Shown piece by piece: positions 21,775 to 25,875 of a stretch of DNA of 64,000 nucleotides; position 1 is the first letter of the stretch; each line of letters starts with the position of its first letter. The translations under genes and the position numbers were made by a program. This DNA is from a virus. The notes under the pieces were generated by a model. It was given only the letters and a program-made list of their open reading frames with translations, made no database searches and was not told the origin of the DNA. The stretch covers positions 32,001 through 96,000 of the IMG/VR virus record IMGVR_UViG_3300023184_000030. One strand, written 5' to 3'.

Positions 21775-22338
21775 TTATCTGCTAATTAACACAGATTTTT
21801 TTGTTGATCCTTGTTGAACTGACCAATTTTCTCCCAAGTAAGAGATGATAATAGATTTCATAAACTCAATATATTCTCCCTTGCCATCGAATTCTAAATT
21901 GTCCTGTATTTCATCATATATTCTATTGATCTTAGGATTTGCTTCTAGGTAGCTGCTTAAACATTTTGATGCATATTCCATTATTCTAGAAACCTCGTTT
22001 CCTCCTGCTTTGAACTTCATAGTGTTAGGCTGCGGAACTTCCTCTTTCTCTACCGCTATGTCTTCTATTAATTCATGGGAAATCTCATTTAATGTAAGTA
22101 CACAGTATGAATTTTTAGGTCCATCTATAACTTCATTATTAGAGTATTTACCGATTATGAAATGAAATCCTTTTTCATCTCCACCTTTTTCGTCTTCTAT
22201 ATTAAAGAAGTAGTTGTAAAGATCACCATTTTTTACCAACAGGAAAGGTGAAGTTCCGAATCCATCCGATTCATGCATAGATCTTGAATCCTGATCATTT
22301 ATTTTGAATTGTTCGAATGTAGATATTATTCTTCCCAT
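21775..22338 (-). CDS. hypothetical protein, putative internal head protein
   Basis: N-terminus MGRIISTFEQFKIN...MHES. Confidence 0.72.
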   Translation of the reverse strand: MGRIISTFEQFKINDQDSRSMHESDGFGTSPFLLVKNGDLYNYFFNIEDEKGGDEKGFHFIIGKYSNNEVIDGPKNSYCVLTLNEISHELIEDIAVEKEEVPQPNTMKFKAGGNEVSRIMEYASKCLSSYLEANPKINRIYDEIQDNLEFDGKGEYIEFMKSIIISYLGENWSVQQGSTKKSVLISR

Positions 22339-22347
22339 TTTTTGATT

Positions 22348-24369
22348 TTATTTTTCTATATTTTCTTTTAAAGCTTTCGTCTCAAGCTCTGCAATTTCGC
22401 TCTCTGTTATAATCTCTTCAGATTCTTTAATTCCCTTTCCGTTAATCGAAGAAAGTAAACTATTATAGAATGAAGAAACCCCCTGAGGTACAAGCTTTTT
22501 AAATGCTAGGAAATCTTCGTTCCCTATGGAATTTCTAATTTCATTTCCTGTTGTTGTTCTTGGAGTTTCCACAACTTCTATTTCTCCGGGAAAATCACCA
22601 CCAGCTTTTTTAAGATATTCAGACTGTTTCTTATAATCTTCTACCCTATCATCACCAGCTCCTATCAGATTAACCTGATATCCCATTTTTTTTGCTATAC
22701 CGTATATAACACCCAATAACCCTTTTTTAGTTGTAAAGTATCCCTCGATTAGTCCAGGGTGATCTTTAACTACTGCTTCCATATATTTGCCAATAAGATC
22801 CTCGTTAAATGGGGATTTCCCCGATTTATTATGTCCAGGATTAACTACAGCAACTATACTAGGTAAACCATTTTTCTCTTTAAGAAATTTTGCCATCTTT
22901 ATATGGCCGTTGTGGAAAGGCTGAAATCTGCCAACCAAAATATTAACTCCCTTAAGCTCTGGCTTTTTGTCTTCATCCTTTTCATCTAATTTAGGTTTTT
23001 CTATATCCTTCTTAGTTGTATCTATTGTTTCCAAAGCCGAGATAAATTCATTATATGAATAGAAGTGATCATCATCCTTAGTGCTCTCTTCAGATTCACT
23101 GGTTACATAATCAACTTTTCTAGGCTTTAAATTATTCTTTTTAAAATCTAAGAATGAAGGCATTTCTGACTCCATCACAGCAGGTTTTTTTGTTTTAGTC
23201 TCTACCCTTTTTTCTATTGATGATACGAGTAAATTGAATTGGTCTATTATACCAGGTGTGATTATTCCGCCTGCTCTCTTTTTAATCTTTCTGAATGAAT
23301 TAAGTATAAGCTTAAATAGGGATTCGAAAGCTTCATCTTCTTCCAAATACTTTAGTACTCTTCTGTCAGTTATAAGATTCCTATTTAGTCTAAAGTCTTC
23401 CTTCTTTAAATACTCAGGCTCTTGAAAATCTGCCCCTTTGTATTTGTATCCATATTCGTCTAGGAATTTAGAGAATACATCAGAAATAAAAGAAATATAT
23501 CTCTCATCCTCGGTAGTTCCTGCTATTTCAAAAGTATCCACACCATTTTCTAGTATGAAGTTCATCACGTCCAGTATAGTAATACCTAAGAAATCGCTAG
23601 GTTTTTCCTCTGTTCTTTTCTTAGCCTTTGATTTTGCAAGCTCAGTAAAAACTGGATCTACCATTTTAGATAATATAGGTTCTTGCTCTTCGTCTTCTTC
23701 ACCAAATCTAAATACTATTCCTTCTATTGCCTTTTCCAAATCTGTATTCAGAGCAGTCTTTTTTAATTCCGGATTAAGTACCCCGATAATAAAAACAACA
23801 AAACTTCTTGTTTTATATTCAGTTACAAGTTCTTCGAAAGGAGTTCTTAGAAAATCCAGTATTCTGTCTTTCTGCTCCTTTTCAAGATATCCCTGAAAAA
23901 TAATAGGTGGTCTTTCAACACCTAATAGATCTGCCCAAGTATCTAGGTCATTCTTACCCTGGATCGTTCCCTTAGGTTTTCCACTAGAATCTTTCTTATG
24001 AACATAAGAAAGTATTAAATTGTTCTTAGGAACTTCATCATAGACAATCTCAACCGGAGCACTATTTGCAAAGTACTCTAATCCAAATCTCCATCCTCTG
24101 GGGATTTCGTTTATTATATGGGGAGGCAGTGATTCGATATACTGTATTGGTTTTTCGTAGTACTTCATTAAAGTCCTATCTACCAAGGTTATCGGATTTC
24201 TCTGATCTCTCTTATAAAAATTAAATTTGCCTGTTTCACTATCCCTTTCGAATATGAAAGCAGACCCGTCCATCTTCTCGTTAACGGTAACATAAGTATT
24301 GAAAAGATTATCAACGAAATCTTTTCCTTTCTTATTATAGAGATCATATAAATGACTAATTCCTGCCAT
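22348..24369 (-). CDS. fusion of an Rnl2-like ligase/nucleotidyltransferase domain and a HIGH-family (NMNAT/cytidylyltransferase-like) domain
   Basis: N-terminal EKMDGS (motif I), FGLEY (III), EGIVFR (IV), SKMVD (V); C-terminal VGRFQPFHNGH, GAGDDR, TTGNEIR. Confidence 0.75.
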   Translation of the reverse strand: MAGISHLYDLYNKKGKDFVDNLFNTYVTVNEKMDGSAFIFERDSETGKFNFYKRDQRNPITLVDRTLMKYYEKPIQYIESLPPHIINEIPRGWRFGLEYFANSAPVEIVYDEVPKNNLILSYVHKKDSSGKPKGTIQGKNDLDTWADLLGVERPPIIFQGYLEKEQKDRILDFLRTPFEELVTEYKTRSFVVFIIGVLNPELKKTALNTDLEKAIEGIVFRFGEEDEEQEPILSKMVDPVFTELAKSKAKKRTEEKPSDFLGITILDVMNFILENGVDTFEIAGTTEDERYISFISDVFSKFLDEYGYKYKGADFQEPEYLKKEDFRLNRNLITDRRVLKYLEEDEAFESLFKLILNSFRKIKKRAGGIITPGIIDQFNLLVSSIEKRVETKTKKPAVMESEMPSFLDFKKNNLKPRKVDYVTSESEESTKDDDHFYSYNEFISALETIDTTKKDIEKPKLDEKDEDKKPELKGVNILVGRFQPFHNGHIKMAKFLKEKNGLPSIVAVVNPGHNKSGKSPFNEDLIGKYMEAVVKDHPGLIEGYFTTKKGLLGVIYGIAKKMGYQVNLIGAGDDRVEDYKKQSEYLKKAGGDFPGEIEVVETPRTTTGNEIRNSIGNEDFLAFKKLVPQGVSSFYNSLLSSINGKGIKESEEIITESEIAELETKALKENIEK

Positions 24370-24379
24370 GCTTTAAATT

Positions 24380-25312
24380 TTAACCAATTCTGTTTATTTC
24401 TGTTGGTATTTCTAGTCCAGCTCTTTCAAGATATTCCAAAAATCTTTGTTTTATTTCAGGTAATCTTTCATGAAGATCAAATTTTGGATCTTCTATTATC
24501 TTTAATAAAGCCTCAAACGTTTTAACATCCTCTGGTTTATATCCTGTACCTAAAGCAAAGTCTATAAATTCTTGAGGATTTCTTGTGACAAATCTTTCAC
24601 TTCCCTCTAATTTCTTAGAGTGTTTTAATCTAGGAATTCTAGTTCCTTTATATGATTTAGTGTGCCAGTATAAGCCATCACTAAGAATCAATACAGGAGC
24701 ATTGTAATCCATGATTTCCCCAGCTTCATCTGTATCTATTACTTCTTTTCTAGCGGATAGTATGGCTGATAAAAGCCAGTTTCTGTGTGCTGATTTGTAT
24801 TTGCTCTCATCCACTTTATAATCGGGGGAGTAATAAATAAAATCTGCCCATTCCATGCTAGATAAAGGAATAAGATCCAATTGGACTATACCTTTTTGTA
24901 GATCACCTTCTATTGGCCATCCAAGGCTAACAACATTTAATCCCTTAAGATAATTTATTTCCGGTTCAAATCCAAGCGCTTCTGCAAGTTGAGTTCTTAA
25001 TATAGTATCAACAGTTGCAGAGCATTCTTTAGTTCCTACCCCATGTTCTTGTGAAAATGAAGTTGCATCGTAGCCAAGATCAAGATCTCCTGATGTGTCA
25101 TCAGGATTCTTTTTCTTACCTATGCTTCCAATTATAATATACTCTTCTCCGTATTTGTCAACATCTATACCTAGAAGCGGGAAAAGAATTTCTTTGATGC
25201 TATCAAGTGTTTTAGGGAATTCATCCTCACGAATTCTCCTTGAGGTTTTTATGGCAGCGCCACCCTCAAATATCTTAGAAAATCCTGAAAAGTTTAAAAT
25301 CCTATTACTCAT
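24380..25312 (-). CDS. Pol-beta-superfamily nucleotidyltransferase
   Basis: IGSIGKK...SGDLDLG (GS + DxD) and a third Asp in VQLDLI; N-terminus MSNRILNFSGFSKIFE. Confidence 0.72.
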   Translation of the reverse strand: MSNRILNFSGFSKIFEGGAAIKTSRRIREDEFPKTLDSIKEILFPLLGIDVDKYGEEYIIIGSIGKKKNPDDTSGDLDLGYDATSFSQEHGVGTKECSATVDTILRTQLAEALGFEPEINYLKGLNVVSLGWPIEGDLQKGIVQLDLIPLSSMEWADFIYYSPDYKVDESKYKSAHRNWLLSAILSARKEVIDTDEAGEIMDYNAPVLILSDGLYWHTKSYKGTRIPRLKHSKKLEGSERFVTRNPQEFIDFALGTGYKPEDVKTFEALLKIIEDPKFDLHERLPEIKQRFLEYLERAGLEIPTEINRIG

Positions 25313-25851
25313 TATTTCTTTTTCATTTTATCGTAATATCTTCCCATAGCACCGGTTAAATAGCTGCTATATTGTTTCTCGTCGTCTGTTTTAGGATTAA
25401 GCGGATCATAGTTTTTACCGAATGATTTTTTACCTTTAAGAGCACCTGATTTATAAAAGTCTTCCGCATCTTTTTGGGTAACGTTCTTATCCCCTATTTT
25501 TTCCTTCTCCCAATCATCCAAGACCTCTTTCTTTTTAGAATTAAGATCAGCTTTAGACATTTTAGAATAACTATCTTTAGAATCCCCTTTGAAGAAAAAA
25601 TCAGAAATAGCAGCACCTGAGCTAGCTATTAATCTTCCAAACAGCGGAACAATCGAATTTATTCTATTTATTGTTGACCTTCCACCATCATCTGGACCTG
25701 GAGTAGTATCTCCTCTAAGCTTGTCATACTCATATTCCATATTTGCATCCACTTTTCTAAGCCATCTGCTTAGTTTAGTGTTGCCCTTATAAAAATCGGT
25801 TTCACCTTCTGTTAGTGATTCGGTAAAGGCATCAAATTTTTTTATCCTCAT
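25312..25851 (-). CDS. hypothetical protein, putative internal head protein
   Basis: N-terminus MRIKKFDAFTESLTE; first gene after the late motif. Confidence 0.72.
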   Translation of the reverse strand: MRIKKFDAFTESLTEGETDFYKGNTKLSRWLRKVDANMEYEYDKLRGDTTPGPDDGGRSTINRINSIVPLFGRLIASSGAAISDFFFKGDSKDSYSKMSKADLNSKKKEVLDDWEKEKIGDKNVTQKDAEDFYKSGALKGKKSFGKNYDPLNPKTDDEKQYSSYLTGAMGRYYDKMKKK

Positions 25852-25867
25852 TTCTGGAGTTTTTCTT

Positions 25868-25875
25868 TATATATC
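25868..25875 (-). promoter_or_regulatory. late-type promoter motif GATATATA
   Basis: Exact octamer 16 nt upstream of ATG 25851. Confidence 0.65.

What the first reader, a model, noticed from the sequence alone, without database searches (positions are those of the whole stretch)
21775..25875. Four-gene late operon combining three nucleotidyltransferase folds, apparently tagged for packaging
Seen: one GATATATA (25868-25875) precedes a tagged hypothetical, a tagged Pol-beta-type NTase (GS..GDLD..D), a 673 aa fusion and another tagged hypothetical. The fusion joins an Rnl2-like adenylyltransferase (EKMDG, EGIV, K) to a HIGH domain whose GRFQPFHNGH and C-terminal T(T)GNEIR resemble NMN adenylyltransferases. 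It has no N-terminal tag, but its linker holds internal tag-like motifs (EMPSFLDFKK, HFYSYNEFISALE) and xxE sites (VME, ALE, LDE). Inference: the fusion may be packaged via the linker and split into two enzymes by the prohead protease. The kit could act at injection, for example in RNA/tRNA end repair, NAD+ resynthesis against NAD-depleting defences, or nucleotidylation of host targets. I do not recognise this combination as a characterised pathway.
Basis: partly seen in the sequence, partly recalled or inferred. Interest (0 to 1): 0.85.

Follow-up and report, generated by a model that had tools for sequence, protein, structure and literature searches.

The report
Leader-tagged repair enzymes of a huge phage
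An uncultured huge phage has a late gene cluster encoding a small polymerase-like enzyme and a ligase fused to an NAD-synthesis-like enzyme, and these proteins carry a short peptide signal that probably loads them into the virus head, although loading has not been shown.

Summary
Four tightly packed minus-strand genes (25851-21775) follow one GATATATA, which is a real promoter-type element: genome-wide 25 of 31 copies are intergenic, and copies precede the head protease and a scaffold-like gene.

Structure prediction confirms three nucleotidyltransferase folds:
- The 310-aa protein resembles family-X DNA polymerases over palm and thumb (Z about 9).
- Residues 1-393 of the 673-aa protein resemble T4 RNA ligase 2.
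- Residues 469-645 are closest to archaeal/NadM NMN adenylyltransferases (profile E 7e-12, Z about 16). PPAT is not excluded by fold.

The N-terminal "tag" is real. About 16 proteins carry it, including a scaffold-like protein next to the capsid gene. It is disordered in models and is followed by a hydrophobic-x-Glu site. A T4-type (S77) prohead protease is encoded.

The fusion's disordered linker holds the same motif, conserved across a very large metagenomic family. Stand-alone ligase homologues carry it at their C-terminus.

Packaging and linker cleavage remain inference. The four genes are colinear in close relatives, but the polymerase-like gene is absent in distant ones. Some lineages have lost catalytic residues. 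A Pol-beta enzyme beside an RNA ligase is a published pairing in jumbo phages.

The scan noted this stretch before only on this same genome.

The parts
25868..25875 (-). GATATATA late-promoter-like octamer, 17 nt upstream of the first gene
   Evidence: Exact match. Genome-wide 25 of 31 copies are intergenic and 30 of 31 lie on the coding strand. Most lie about 5-65 nt (typically 17-33 nt) before an ATG. Copies precede the head protease, a scaffold-like gene, large structural genes and 8 leader-bearing genes.
25312..25851 (-). 179-aa protein of unknown fold with an N-terminal leader (residues 1-15, F-x-x-F at 6-9, L-T-E/G at 13-16)
   Evidence: ORF. No Pfam, PHROG, NCBIfam or PDB match. Homologues in IMG/VR loci keep the leader form although identity falls to 30-50%.
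24380..25312 (-). 310-aa family-X-polymerase-like Pol-beta-fold nucleotidyltransferase. Leader is residues 1-16, ending in the invariant E16/G17-G18. Catalytic D76, D78 and D146.
   Evidence: AF2 pLDDT 89.8 with residues 1-17 disordered. VIA-align: the top 8 hits are all family-X polymerases, Z 8.9-9.6, spanning about model residues 9-270; ASFV Pol X gives Z 9.1, rmsd 3.4 over 164 residues. Foldseek finds Pol lambda/beta at E 3.5e-3. Invariant motifs in 20 homologues. No sequence-family match.
23191..24369 (-). Fusion N-domain, residues 1-393: Rnl2-like covalent nucleotidyltransferase (1-238, Lys32) plus an all-helical domain (239-390)
   Evidence: AF2 pLDDT mostly above 85. Foldseek finds T4 Rnl2 2hvr/2hvq at E 7e-7 to 2e-6 over 369-397 columns. 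Pfam RNA_ligase is below cut-off for this protein (E 0.005-0.014), but 14 of 28 homologues match it, best 1.3e-7.
22966..23190 (-). Disordered linker, residues 394-468. Conserved motif 1 is at 23137-23178 (residues 398-411, E400/S401 then P-S-F-x-D-F). Motif 2 is at 23029-23067 (residues 435-447, ending A-L-E).
   Evidence: pLDDT below 50 with two isolated helices at 406-412 and 440-448. Motif 1 with a preceding Glu/Asp plus small residue is kept in about 31 of 37 homologues at 25-68% identity, while the rest of the linker is unalignable. About 15 of 21 stand-alone ligase homologues end with the same motif.
22435..22965 (-). Fusion C-domain, residues 469-645: HIGH-superfamily adenylyltransferase closest to archaeal/NadM NMNAT (Arg481, His486, His489, Arg612)
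   Evidence: Pfam PF01467 E 9e-6. Family profile against PDB: M. jannaschii NMNAT 7e-12, NadM-Nudix 8e-9 and 3e-8, best PPAT 6.6e-7. VIA-align: NaMNAT/NMNAT Z 15.5-16.4 (1f9a Z 15.9, rmsd 2.3, 151 residues), PPAT Z 14-14.9.
22348..22434 (-). Acidic C-terminal tail of the fusion (residues 646-673), a low-confidence helix
   Evidence: AF2. In three homologue clusters the stop is absent and the next gene is fused here.
21775..22338 (-). 187-aa protein of unknown fold with a leader (F-x-x-F at 8-11, M-H-E/S at 21-24, then conserved D-G-F-G)
   Evidence: ORF. No family or PDB match. It is the most persistent neighbour of the fusion, detected down to 33% identity. It is fused in frame to the fusion, with its leader retained, in P0113, P0127 and P0396.
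20878..20905 (-). First terminator-like hairpin downstream on the coding strand. It is the possible real end of the transcription unit.
   Evidence: 12-bp stem followed by a T run. The next GATATATA follows at 20865-20872.

Best explanation
The cluster is a late-expressed set of nucleic-acid end-repair and nucleotide-handling enzymes. It comprises three enzymatic modules and two small proteins of unknown fold.
- A minimal family-X-polymerase-like nucleotidyltransferase probably adds or fills in nucleotides.
- An Rnl2-like ligase module probably seals nicks.
- An NMN-adenylyltransferase-like module is fused to the ligase.

Three of the four proteins start with a short amphipathic leader (hydrophobic-x-x-aromatic-x-x-aromatic) that ends in a hydrophobic-x-Glu site. 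The fusion carries the same motif, preceded by an x-x-Glu/Ser site, in its disordered linker.

By analogy with the T4 capsid targeting sequence and the T4 gp21 protease, the leader most likely docks these proteins to the scaffolding core of the prohead. The S77-type prohead protease would then remove the leader and may separate the ligase from the adenylyltransferase. The enzymes would thus travel in the head and enter the next host with the DNA.

Shown here: the folds, the motifs, the disorder of the leader and linker, the shared promoter element, and the presence of the protease. Inferred: late timing, packaging, cleavage, and every substrate.
For: Folds:
- PolX-like.
- Rnl2-like.
- NMNAT-like.

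Catalytic residues:
- The carboxylate triad and the G-S motif are invariant in the 310-aa family.
- Lys32 is kept in 32 of 37 fusion homologues, and the Arg/His/His/Arg set of archaeal NMNAT is present.

Leader:
- It recurs on about 16 of 176 ORFs and only at N-termini.
- It precedes otherwise complete adenylate kinase and ferritin domains and a RimK-like ATP-grasp protein.
- It is present on a 382-aa coiled-coil protein encoded directly after the major capsid gene.
- It is disordered in the NTase model.
- It is followed by a hydrophobic-x-Glu plus small residue site that stays put in orthologues while the leader length varies.
- The capsid protein itself starts with a short segment ending L-I-E/S.

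Protease and promoter:
- An S77 prohead protease is encoded.
- Leader-bearing genes are enriched for a directly preceding GATATATA (8 of 16 against 19 of 160, Fisher P 6e-4). The same element precedes the protease and the scaffold-like gene.

Linker:
- It is disordered, with the motif as an isolated helix.
- The motif is conserved across the family and is the C-terminal tail of stand-alone ligase homologues.
- It recurs at the junction in triple fusions.

Published precedent: Pol-beta NTases (RlaP) accompany Rnl1/Rnl2 ligases in jumbo phages (PMC7824862).
Against: - There is no cultured relative and no virion proteome, so packaging and cleavage rest on analogy.
- The binding partner of the leader is unknown.
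- Adenylate kinase, ferritin and a RimK-like enzyme are unusual head cargo.
- Lys32 is replaced in 5 of 37 homologues and the H-x-G-H motif is degenerate in about 7 of 37. Catalysis is therefore dispensable in some lineages.
- The 310-aa and 179-aa genes are absent beside the fusion in more distant relatives.
- Sequence-family scores are below curated cut-offs for RNA_ligase and NMNAT, and there is no hit for PolX or RlaP models.
- GATATATA also precedes a helicase and a MazG-like gene, so it may not be strictly late.
Confidence: 0.5

Rival explanations
1. The enzymes form a cytoplasmic RNA-repair module that is not packaged. The Pol-beta enzyme restores lost nucleotides and the Rnl2-like domain reseals tRNA or other RNA cut by host nucleases, as proposed for RlaP plus RNA ligase pairs. 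The leader motif would serve another purpose, for example docking to a common hub or to the phage's own DnaK/DnaJ chaperones.
For: - The Rnl2-like fold has an all-helical second domain rather than an OB domain.
- Half of the homologues match Pfam RNA_ligase.
- A published association links a Pol-beta NTase with Rnl2 in jumbo phages.
- The motif is position-independent (N-terminal, internal or C-terminal), as hub-binding peptides often are.
- The phage encodes DnaK and DnaJ.
Against: - There is no match to the RlaP model.
- The best fold matches of the 310-aa protein are DNA polymerases over palm and thumb, not RNA-specific NTases.
- No KptA was found. No tRNA genes lie in the window.
- The leader sits on a scaffold-like protein next to the capsid gene and on genes that share the promoter element of the head genes.
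- No T4-type clamp domain was detected in this genome or in four complete relatives.
Confidence: 0.25
2. The pair forms a DNA gap-filling and sealing (base-excision or end-joining type) module, whether packaged or not. It would complete repair started by the phage's Nei-type and MBD4-like glycosylases, as family-X polymerase and ligase do in African swine fever virus and in the fused PolX-ligase of Phaeocystis globosa virus.
For: - All eight best structural matches are family-X polymerases, including the minimal ASFV Pol X.
- The motif around the D-x-D is of the Pol-beta type.
- ORFs that earlier first-reader notes call Fpg/Nei-type and MBD4-like lie at 13923-15136 in the same window. This was not checked here.
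- A viral precedent exists for PolX coupled to a ligase (PMC5537341).
- Two fusion homologues match the ATP-dependent DNA ligase domain.
Against: - Z of about 9 at 12-15% identity is moderate, and there is no sequence match to PolX families.
- The ligase domain lacks an OB fold and looks like an RNA ligase.
- No 8-kDa lyase domain is evident.
- The NMNAT-like domain has no obvious role, because the ligase lacks the NAD-binding Ia domain.
Confidence: 0.2
3. The C-domain is a true NMN adenylyltransferase that rebuilds NAD+ after depletion by host defences, working with a NadV-type enzyme. The fusion to the ligase is incidental, or it couples NAD+ supply to repair.
For: - The closest relatives by profile and by fold are archaeal and NadM NMNATs.
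- The Arg and two His of the G-R-F-Q-P-F-H-x-G-H motif and the Arg of the C-terminal motif are present. These are the residues mutated in the solved M. thermoautotrophicum enzymes.
- A NadV-like gene occurs in 3 of 4 complete relatives. In two of them the fusion is the only HIGH-superfamily hit.
- Published account of phage NadV plus NadM salvage.
Against: - NCBIfam NMNAT equivalog scores are far below cut-off (17.5 against 181 bits).
- PPAT folds score nearly as well (Z 14-14.9).
- The closest complete relative (348 kb) and the partial genome itself lack NadV.
- The H-x-G-H motif is lost in about 7 of 37 homologues.
Confidence: 0.3
4. The fusion is mainly a structural or scaffolding head component derived from enzymes (a pseudoenzyme). 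Its conserved linker peptides are the functional part.
For: - Catalytic residues of one or the other domain are lost in several lineages, while the domain order and linker motifs persist.
- Extra C-terminal domains of unknown type are appended in many roughly 1000-aa homologues.
Against: - In the window's own protein, and in most homologues, every catalytic motif that was examined is intact.
- Both domains are predicted with high confidence as complete enzyme folds.
Confidence: 0.1

Closest known systems
T4 RNA ligase 2 (gp24.1) and the Pfam RNA_ligase family PF09414
   Same: Both have the covalent nucleotidyltransferase fold followed by an all-helical domain. Both have an E-K-x-x-G type motif I with a lysine, plus motif IV and V equivalents. 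Foldseek E is about 1e-6, and half of the homologues match the Pfam model.
   Different: Identity is only 12-13%. The window's protein is below the Pfam cut-off. The helical domain is larger (about 150 residues). The protein is fused to a HIGH-superfamily enzyme through a disordered linker. The lysine is replaced in some lineages.
Archaeal / NadM-type NMN adenylyltransferase (M. jannaschii MJ0541, PDB 1f9a; NadM-Nudix 2qjo, 2qjt)
   Same: It shares the G-R-F-Q-P-F-H-x-G-H signature and the S/T-G-x-E-I-R motif. The whole domain superposes (Z 15.9, rmsd 2.3, 151 residues). Profile E is 7e-12.
   Different: It is fused to a ligase instead of a Nudix or kinase domain. It is far below the equivalog cut-offs. 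PPAT and NaMNAT folds score almost as well. A NadV partner is absent in this genome and in its closest complete relative.
Family-X DNA polymerases, especially the minimal ASFV Pol X (PDB 5hr9) and Pol beta/lambda
   Same: It shares the G-S ... G-D-x-D ... D active-site pattern. Palm plus thumb superpose over 164-198 residues, Z 8.9-9.6.
   Different: There is no detectable sequence-family membership and no lyase domain. It has extra C-terminal helices (about residues 270-310) and an N-terminal leader. It belongs to an unannotated phage family whose best match is a hypothetical protein of Agrobacterium phage Atu_ph07.
[quoted passage not shown] 2021, PMC7824862)
   Same: A Pol-beta-fold NTase gene lies directly beside an Rnl2-type ligase gene in a very large phage.
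   Different: The 310-aa protein does not match the RlaP model PF10127 and looks more like a templated polymerase. The pair carries leaders and a fused adenylyltransferase.
T4 capsid targeting sequence of internal proteins and Alt, removed by the gp21 prohead protease
   Same: It is a short N-terminal peptide with aromatic residues three apart and an acidic residue between them, ending in a hydrophobic-x-Glu site. It sits on many unrelated proteins. An S77-family protease is encoded. The genes are expressed from a T4-late-like A/T octamer.
   Different: The consensus differs. The motif also occurs internally and at C-termini. The cargo would include metabolic enzymes (adenylate kinase, ferritin, ATP-grasp, polymerase-like, ligase). 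Nothing has been tested experimentally.
Phaeocystis globosa virus PolX-ligase fusion for base excision repair (PMC5537341)
   Same: A virus couples a Pol-beta-type polymerase with a ligase module.
   Different: There the two are one polypeptide of a eukaryotic giant virus. Here they are adjacent genes, and the ligase is of the RNA-ligase type.

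Membership tests
Rnl2-like RNA ligase (Pfam PF09414, covalent nucleotidyltransferases) | Motif I lysine (K-x-x-G) that becomes adenylylated | tested here: met
   Lys32 lies in E-K-M-D-G. Glu31 is invariant and Lys is present in 32 of 37 homologues, with N or Q in five.
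Rnl2-like RNA ligase (Pfam PF09414, covalent nucleotidyltransferases) | Score above the curated Pfam cut-off | tested here: not met
   15.9-17.4 bits against a cut-off of 27 for the window's protein. 14 of 28 homologues match at E up to 0.01, best 1.3e-7.
Rnl2-like RNA ligase (Pfam PF09414, covalent nucleotidyltransferases) | Nucleotidyltransferase fold plus C-terminal helical domain | tested here: met
   Foldseek against full-length T4 Rnl2 (2hvr, 2hvq): E 7e-7 to 2e-6 over 369-397 columns. The model has strands 26-237 followed by helices 239-390.
Rnl2-like RNA ligase (Pfam PF09414, covalent nucleotidyltransferases) | Motifs III, IV and V in register with Rnl2 | tested here: inconclusive
   Candidate motifs are at 95-100, 215-222 and 233-239. 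The motif III acid is variable in the family. No residue-level superposition was available.
NMN adenylyltransferase, archaeal/NadM type | G-R/K-F-x-P-x-H-x-G-H motif and C-terminal S-x-T-x-x-R type motif | tested here: met
   Residues 480-489 and 607-612. They align to MJ0541 in the profile search.
NMN adenylyltransferase, archaeal/NadM type | Score above the NCBIfam equivalog or subfamily cut-off | tested here: not met
   TIGR01527 gives 17.5 against 181 bits and NF002243 gives 24.1 against 127 bits.
NMN adenylyltransferase, archaeal/NadM type | Closer to NMNAT than to other HIGH-superfamily enzymes | tested here: inconclusive
   The profile favours NMNAT by five orders of magnitude over PPAT. 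By fold the difference is only 1-2 Z units.
NMN adenylyltransferase, archaeal/NadM type | Co-occurrence with NadV in the same phage | tested here: inconclusive
   NadV-like genes occur in 3 of 4 complete relatives. None occurs in the closest relative or in this 63%-complete genome.
NMN adenylyltransferase, archaeal/NadM type | NMN plus ATP gives NAD+ | not testable with these tools
   This needs an enzyme assay.
Family-X DNA polymerase | G-S motif and three catalytic carboxylates on the palm | tested here: met
   G62-S63, D76, D78 and D146 are invariant in 20 homologues.
Family-X DNA polymerase | Palm plus thumb architecture | tested here: met
   The top eight VIA-align hits are all family X, Z 8.9-9.6, with 164-198 residues aligned across about model residues 9-270. 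Other Pol-beta NTases match only residues 28-160.
Family-X DNA polymerase | Sequence-family membership (Pfam or PDB by sequence) | tested here: not met
   No Pfam, NCBIfam, PHROG or PDB sequence match.
RlaP (PF10127) | Match to the RlaP model | tested here: not met
   No match at E up to 0.1 for the protein or at E up to 1 in the six-frame genome search.
RlaP (PF10127) | Gene adjacency to an Rnl-type ligase | tested here: met
   The stop of the 310-aa gene lies 10 nt before the fusion's start. The adjacency is kept in about 65 of 79 related loci.
T4-type capsid targeting sequence cargo | Shared short leader on unrelated proteins, ending at a hydrophobic-x-Glu site | tested here: met
T4-type capsid targeting sequence cargo | gp21-family (S77) prohead protease in the genome | tested here: met
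   PF03420 at 32.5 bits, above cut-off. phrog_207 head maturation protease, E 3.7e-37.
T4-type capsid targeting sequence cargo | Presence of the processed protein in the virion | not testable with these tools
   No cultured relative and no proteome data are available.

The most novel reading that the evidence does not exclude
The phage may load an enzymatic starter kit into its head through a position-independent cargo peptide. The kit would include a polyprotein that the prohead protease cuts into an Rnl2-like ligase and an NMN adenylyltransferase (plus the 187-aa protein in some relatives). It would also include a PolX-like polymerase, adenylate kinase, ferritin and an ATP-grasp enzyme. Once injected with the DNA, the kit would repair nicked or gapped genome ends or cleaved RNA, possibly by ribonucleotide patches sealed by the RNA-type ligase. 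It would also restore NAD+ and ATP pools before any phage gene is expressed, countering abortive-infection defences.
Probability: 0.25. Interest if true: 0.85.

Novelty: new variant of a known kind. Interest (0 to 1): 0.66.

Why it matters
If the leader is a cargo-loading signal, this clade of uncultured huge phages would deliver a set of metabolic and repair enzymes with its genome. Their genomes reach 430 kb, and the fusion family alone has more than 700 clusters at 50% identity. This would go well beyond the few injected proteins known from T4, N4 or phiKZ.

It would also provide a simple, portable peptide for loading foreign proteins into large capsids.

Independently of packaging, three points stand:
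- The Rnl2-like/NMNAT-like fusion is currently annotated only as 'cytidyltransferase-like'.
- The PolX-like phage family is unannotated.
- The link of NAD chemistry to nucleic-acid sealing in one polypeptide has no described counterpart in the papers read here.

Tried and rejected
- **Complex prediction.** The leader region of the 310-aa protein (residues 1-60, with alignment) was tested against the repeat region of the protease/scaffold protein (residues 285-480). The result was 'no answer', score 0.00. It is not evidence either way.
- **Sequence search of the N-domain.** The N-domain family profile found nothing in PDB sequences.
- **Nucleotide search.** Megablast of the region against deposited phages found nothing.
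- **Sliding-clamp reading of the motif.** No T4-type clamp domain (PF02916) was detected in this genome or in four complete relatives. The C-terminal tail of the split polymerase does not carry the motif. The reading is not excluded, but it fits poorly with adenylate kinase, ferritin and a scaffold-like protein carrying the motif.
- **Split forms of the C-domain.** The short hits P0145, P0156, P0204 and P0260 look like truncated fragments, so they were not used as evidence for stand-alone tagged adenylyltransferases.
- **Relatives in cultured phages.** The neighbourhoods of the Atu_ph07 and Xanthomonas phage BUDD relatives gave no functional clue.
- **Locus search with the family alignment.** The search of viral contigs with the full family alignment failed for lack of a conserved stretch. 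The single protein was used instead.
- **Other searches.** KptA and RlaP models found nothing. ARAGORN found no tRNA in the window.

Full report
**Context.** The window is bases 32001-96000 of a 172.8-kb IMG/VR viral record that CheckV rates 63% complete. G+C is about 35% and almost all genes lie on the minus strand. No deposited phage matches at nucleotide level. At protein level the nearest deposited genomes are uncultured huge phages (LR756500, 462 kb) and the Lak megaphages. IMG/VR holds 79 related loci, some from complete genomes of 348-434 kb with terminal repeats.

**The observation.**
- The four ORFs are 25851-25312 (179 aa), 25312-24380 (310 aa), 24369-22348 (673 aa) and 22338-21775 (187 aa).
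- They are joined by a one-base overlap and by spacers of 10 and 9 nt, so they are co-transcribed.
- The only promoter-type element is GATATATA at 25868-25875.

This octamer is not a chance match.
- In the whole record 25 of 31 copies are intergenic, although only 5.6% of the DNA is intergenic (P 3e-26).
- Thirty of 31 copies lie on the coding strand, and most sit 17-33 nt before an ATG.
- Copies precede the head maturation protease, a scaffold-like gene, several very large structural genes and weakly tail-fibre-like genes.

This fits a T4-late-like promoter. The element also precedes a helicase and a MazG-like gene, so 'late' is likely but not proven. The first terminator-like hairpin on the coding strand lies at 20905-20878. 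The transcript may therefore continue through four more small genes. One of these (the Hc1-like gene) has its own G-A-A-A-C N17 T-A-T-A-A-A element, visible.

**The 310-aa protein.** No sequence library recognises it. It has more than 360 metagenomic homologues.
- An alignment of 20 homologues (49-79% identity) shows invariant G62-S63, D76, D78, D146 and a K-S-A-H-R-N-W block.
- The AlphaFold model is confident (pLDDT 89.8, pTM 0.83), except for residues 1-17.
- Foldseek's best solved matches are DNA polymerases lambda and beta, E 3.5e-3.
- An exhaustive structural comparison puts eight family-X polymerases on top. Z is 8.9-9.6, with 164-198 residues aligned across about model residues 9-270. 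The minimal ASFV Pol X gives Z 9.1 and rmsd 3.4 over 164 of 176 residues.
- Terminal uridylyltransferases, cGAS-like enzymes and CCA-adding enzymes match only the palm, residues 28-160, with Z of 8.1 or less.
- Among predicted viral structures the best match is an uncharacterised protein of Agrobacterium phage Atu_ph07 (E 4e-17), followed by uncharacterised proteins of uncultured phages.

The protein is therefore a member of an unannotated phage family of PolX-like nucleotidyltransferases. It does not match the RlaP model.

**The 673-aa fusion.** The family is very large: 728 representatives at 50% clustering, and 431 with E below 1e-10. Sources call it 'cytidyltransferase-like protein'. The model has three parts.
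- A confident N-domain spans residues 1-393: a nucleotidyltransferase fold to about 238, then helices.
- A disordered linker spans 394-468, with two isolated helices.
- A confident C-domain spans 469-645.

The N-domain resembles full-length T4 RNA ligase 2, with Foldseek E about 1e-6. The window's protein is below the Pfam RNA_ligase cut-off, but 14 of 28 homologues match it and two match the ATP-dependent DNA ligase domain.

The C-domain passes the generic Pfam and TIGR HIGH-family cut-offs.
- A family profile finds M. jannaschii NMNAT at 7e-12 and NadM-Nudix enzymes at 8e-9 and 3e-8. PPAT appears only from 6.6e-7.
- By structure, NaMNAT/NMNAT score Z 15.5-16.4 and PPAT Z 14-14.9.
- The Arg and two His of the N-terminal motif and the Arg of the C-terminal motif are all present. 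These are the residues altered in the solved M. thermoautotrophicum mutants.
- Curated NMNAT equivalog cut-offs are not reached.

**Erosion of catalytic residues.** In 37 aligned homologues Glu31 is invariant, but Lys32 is N or Q in five. This is also so in LR756500 and in locus L067. The H-x-G-H motif is degenerate in about seven. One homologue has lost both. The window's protein keeps every motif. The architecture therefore persists where catalysis of one module may not.

**The leader.** About 16 of 176 ORFs start with M, one to six residues including a hydrophobic one, then aromatic-x-x-aromatic with acidic or polar residues between.
- The pattern is essentially restricted to N-termini.
- The carriers are otherwise complete domains: adenylate kinase (Pfam domain from residue 27), ferritin (from residue 43), a RimK-like ATP-grasp enzyme and the PolX-like enzyme (fold from about residue 24).
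- Three consecutive genes directly after the major capsid gene also carry it. The first is a 382-aa charged coiled-coil protein typical of scaffolds.
- A few residues after the aromatic pair comes a hydrophobic-x-Glu followed by Gly, Ser, Asn or Ala.
- In orthologues of the 310-aa, 179-aa and 187-aa proteins this site stays fixed next to the first conserved residues of the mature part, while the leader varies in length and sequence.
- The capsid protein itself begins with an 18-residue segment ending L-I-E/S.
- The genome encodes an S77 (T4 gp21-type) prohead protease. Its ORF continues into about fourteen 12-residue repeats.
- Leader genes are enriched for their own GATATATA (Fisher P 6e-4).

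All this matches the logic of the T4 capsid targeting sequence and the L/I-x-Glu specificity of gp21, which is established knowledge reviewed in PMC3012670 and PMC9958956 (listed). It remains an analogy.

**The linker.** In the otherwise unalignable, acidic linker about 31 of 37 homologues keep one element. It is a Glu or Asp followed by a small residue, then within zero to four residues a hydrophobic-x-Ser/Thr-Phe-x-Asp/Glu-aromatic element. In the window this is residues 398-411, predicted as an isolated helix. It closely resembles the leader of the scaffold-like protein. A second amphipathic element follows in many members (residues 435-447 here).
- Stand-alone ligase homologues of 380-430 aa mostly end with the same motif (about 15 of 21). 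The motif therefore belongs to the ligase module as a C-terminal tail that became internal on fusion.
- In three clusters of different divergence the 187-aa gene is fused in frame to the end of the fusion and keeps its leader internally.
- In P0144 a leader-like element separates the C-domain from a third domain.

The signal is thus position-independent and marks module boundaries. This pattern is what one expects of a polyprotein cargo cut at x-x-Glu sites. It would also fit a peptide that binds some other hub.

**Co-conservation.** The order helicase, 179-aa, 310-aa, fusion, 187-aa, Hc1-like is kept in about 65 of 79 loci. The flanking genes are equally colinear, so this is clade synteny rather than a specific linkage. 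Where the fusion is only 40-50% identical, the 310-aa and 179-aa genes are not found between helicase and fusion. Other leader-bearing or acidic proteins take their place. In LR756500 a leader-bearing second ligase-like protein sits there. The 187-aa protein is the persistent partner, and it is sometimes fused.

**NAD link.** A NadV-like gene is present in three of four complete relatives. In two of these the fusion is the only HIGH-superfamily hit. The closest complete relative and this partial genome lack NadV. This is compatible with an NMNAT role but does not prove it.

**Comparison with the literature.** Iyer et al. (PMC7824862) describe RlaP Pol-beta NTases co-distributed with Rnl1/Rnl2 ligases in jumbo phages, predicted to restore nucleotides before ligation. 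They also describe NadV/NadM/NadR salvage (see also PMC9503650). Neither paper, as far as the passages found show, mentions a ligase fused to a HIGH-superfamily adenylyltransferase. A PolX-ligase fusion for base excision repair is known from a giant algal virus (PMC5537341).

**Verdict.** The tag is real and linked to the head-gene promoter class. Packaging and proteolytic splitting are coherent with every computational test I could make, but they are unproven. The system is a new variant built from known kinds: a T4-like targeting leader, a Pol-beta plus Rnl2 repair pair, and a NadM-like enzyme. My odds are about 0.5 that these proteins are head cargo, about 0.35 that the linker is cut, and about 0.3 that the C-domain makes NAD+.

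Noticed in passing
G000:C1:125728-127692 (L084:12728-14692, minus strand), outside the window: The head maturation protease ORF (654 aa) continues after the protease domain into about fourteen tandem 12-residue repeats. An exact GATATATA lies inside the ORF at genome 127059-127066, which suggests a nested scaffold gene.
   Followed up: partly
G000:C1:122715-123863, 121777-122715 and 121512-121784 (outside the window): Three consecutive genes right after the major capsid gene all start with the leader. The first is a 382-aa highly charged coiled-coil protein that looks like a scaffold.
   Followed up: partly
window 6290-6916, window 15232-15804, and G000:C1:24738-26195: Adenylate kinase, ferritin and a RimK-like ATP-grasp enzyme carry the same N-terminal leader in front of complete enzyme domains.
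   Followed up: partly
G000:C1:24238-24552 (plus strand; L098:1238-1552): A 104-aa acidic ORF on the minority strand ends with the same aromatic motif at its C-terminus. It has no family match. It could be a real small protein with a C-terminal copy of the signal, or a spurious ORF.
   Followed up: partly
L002:5942-7207 (LR756500.1, minus strand): In the 462-kb phage LR756500 a leader-bearing 421-aa protein with a K-L-D-G motif (a second ligase-like gene) lies directly upstream of the fusion homologue. That fusion homologue has Asn in place of the motif I lysine.
   Followed up: no
P0125, P0126, P0129, P0131, P0153 and other homologues of about 1000-1290 aa: Many fusion homologues carry a further C-terminal extension of 350-650 residues. 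It has no Pfam match and no counterpart in this genome.
   Followed up: partly
L085, L086, L087 (complete relatives G004, G002, G003): NadV-like nicotinamide phosphoribosyltransferase genes are present in three complete relatives of 373-434 kb but not in the closest 348-kb relative.
   Followed up: partly
window 20878-20905: A 12-bp palindromic hairpin reads as a terminator on both strands. It is followed immediately by another GATATATA at 20865-20872.
   Followed up: no
window 21715-21774: The spacer before the 59-aa Hc1-like gene holds G-A-A-A-C, 17 nt, then T-A-T-A-A-A. This is a second promoter type inside the possible long transcript.
   Followed up: no
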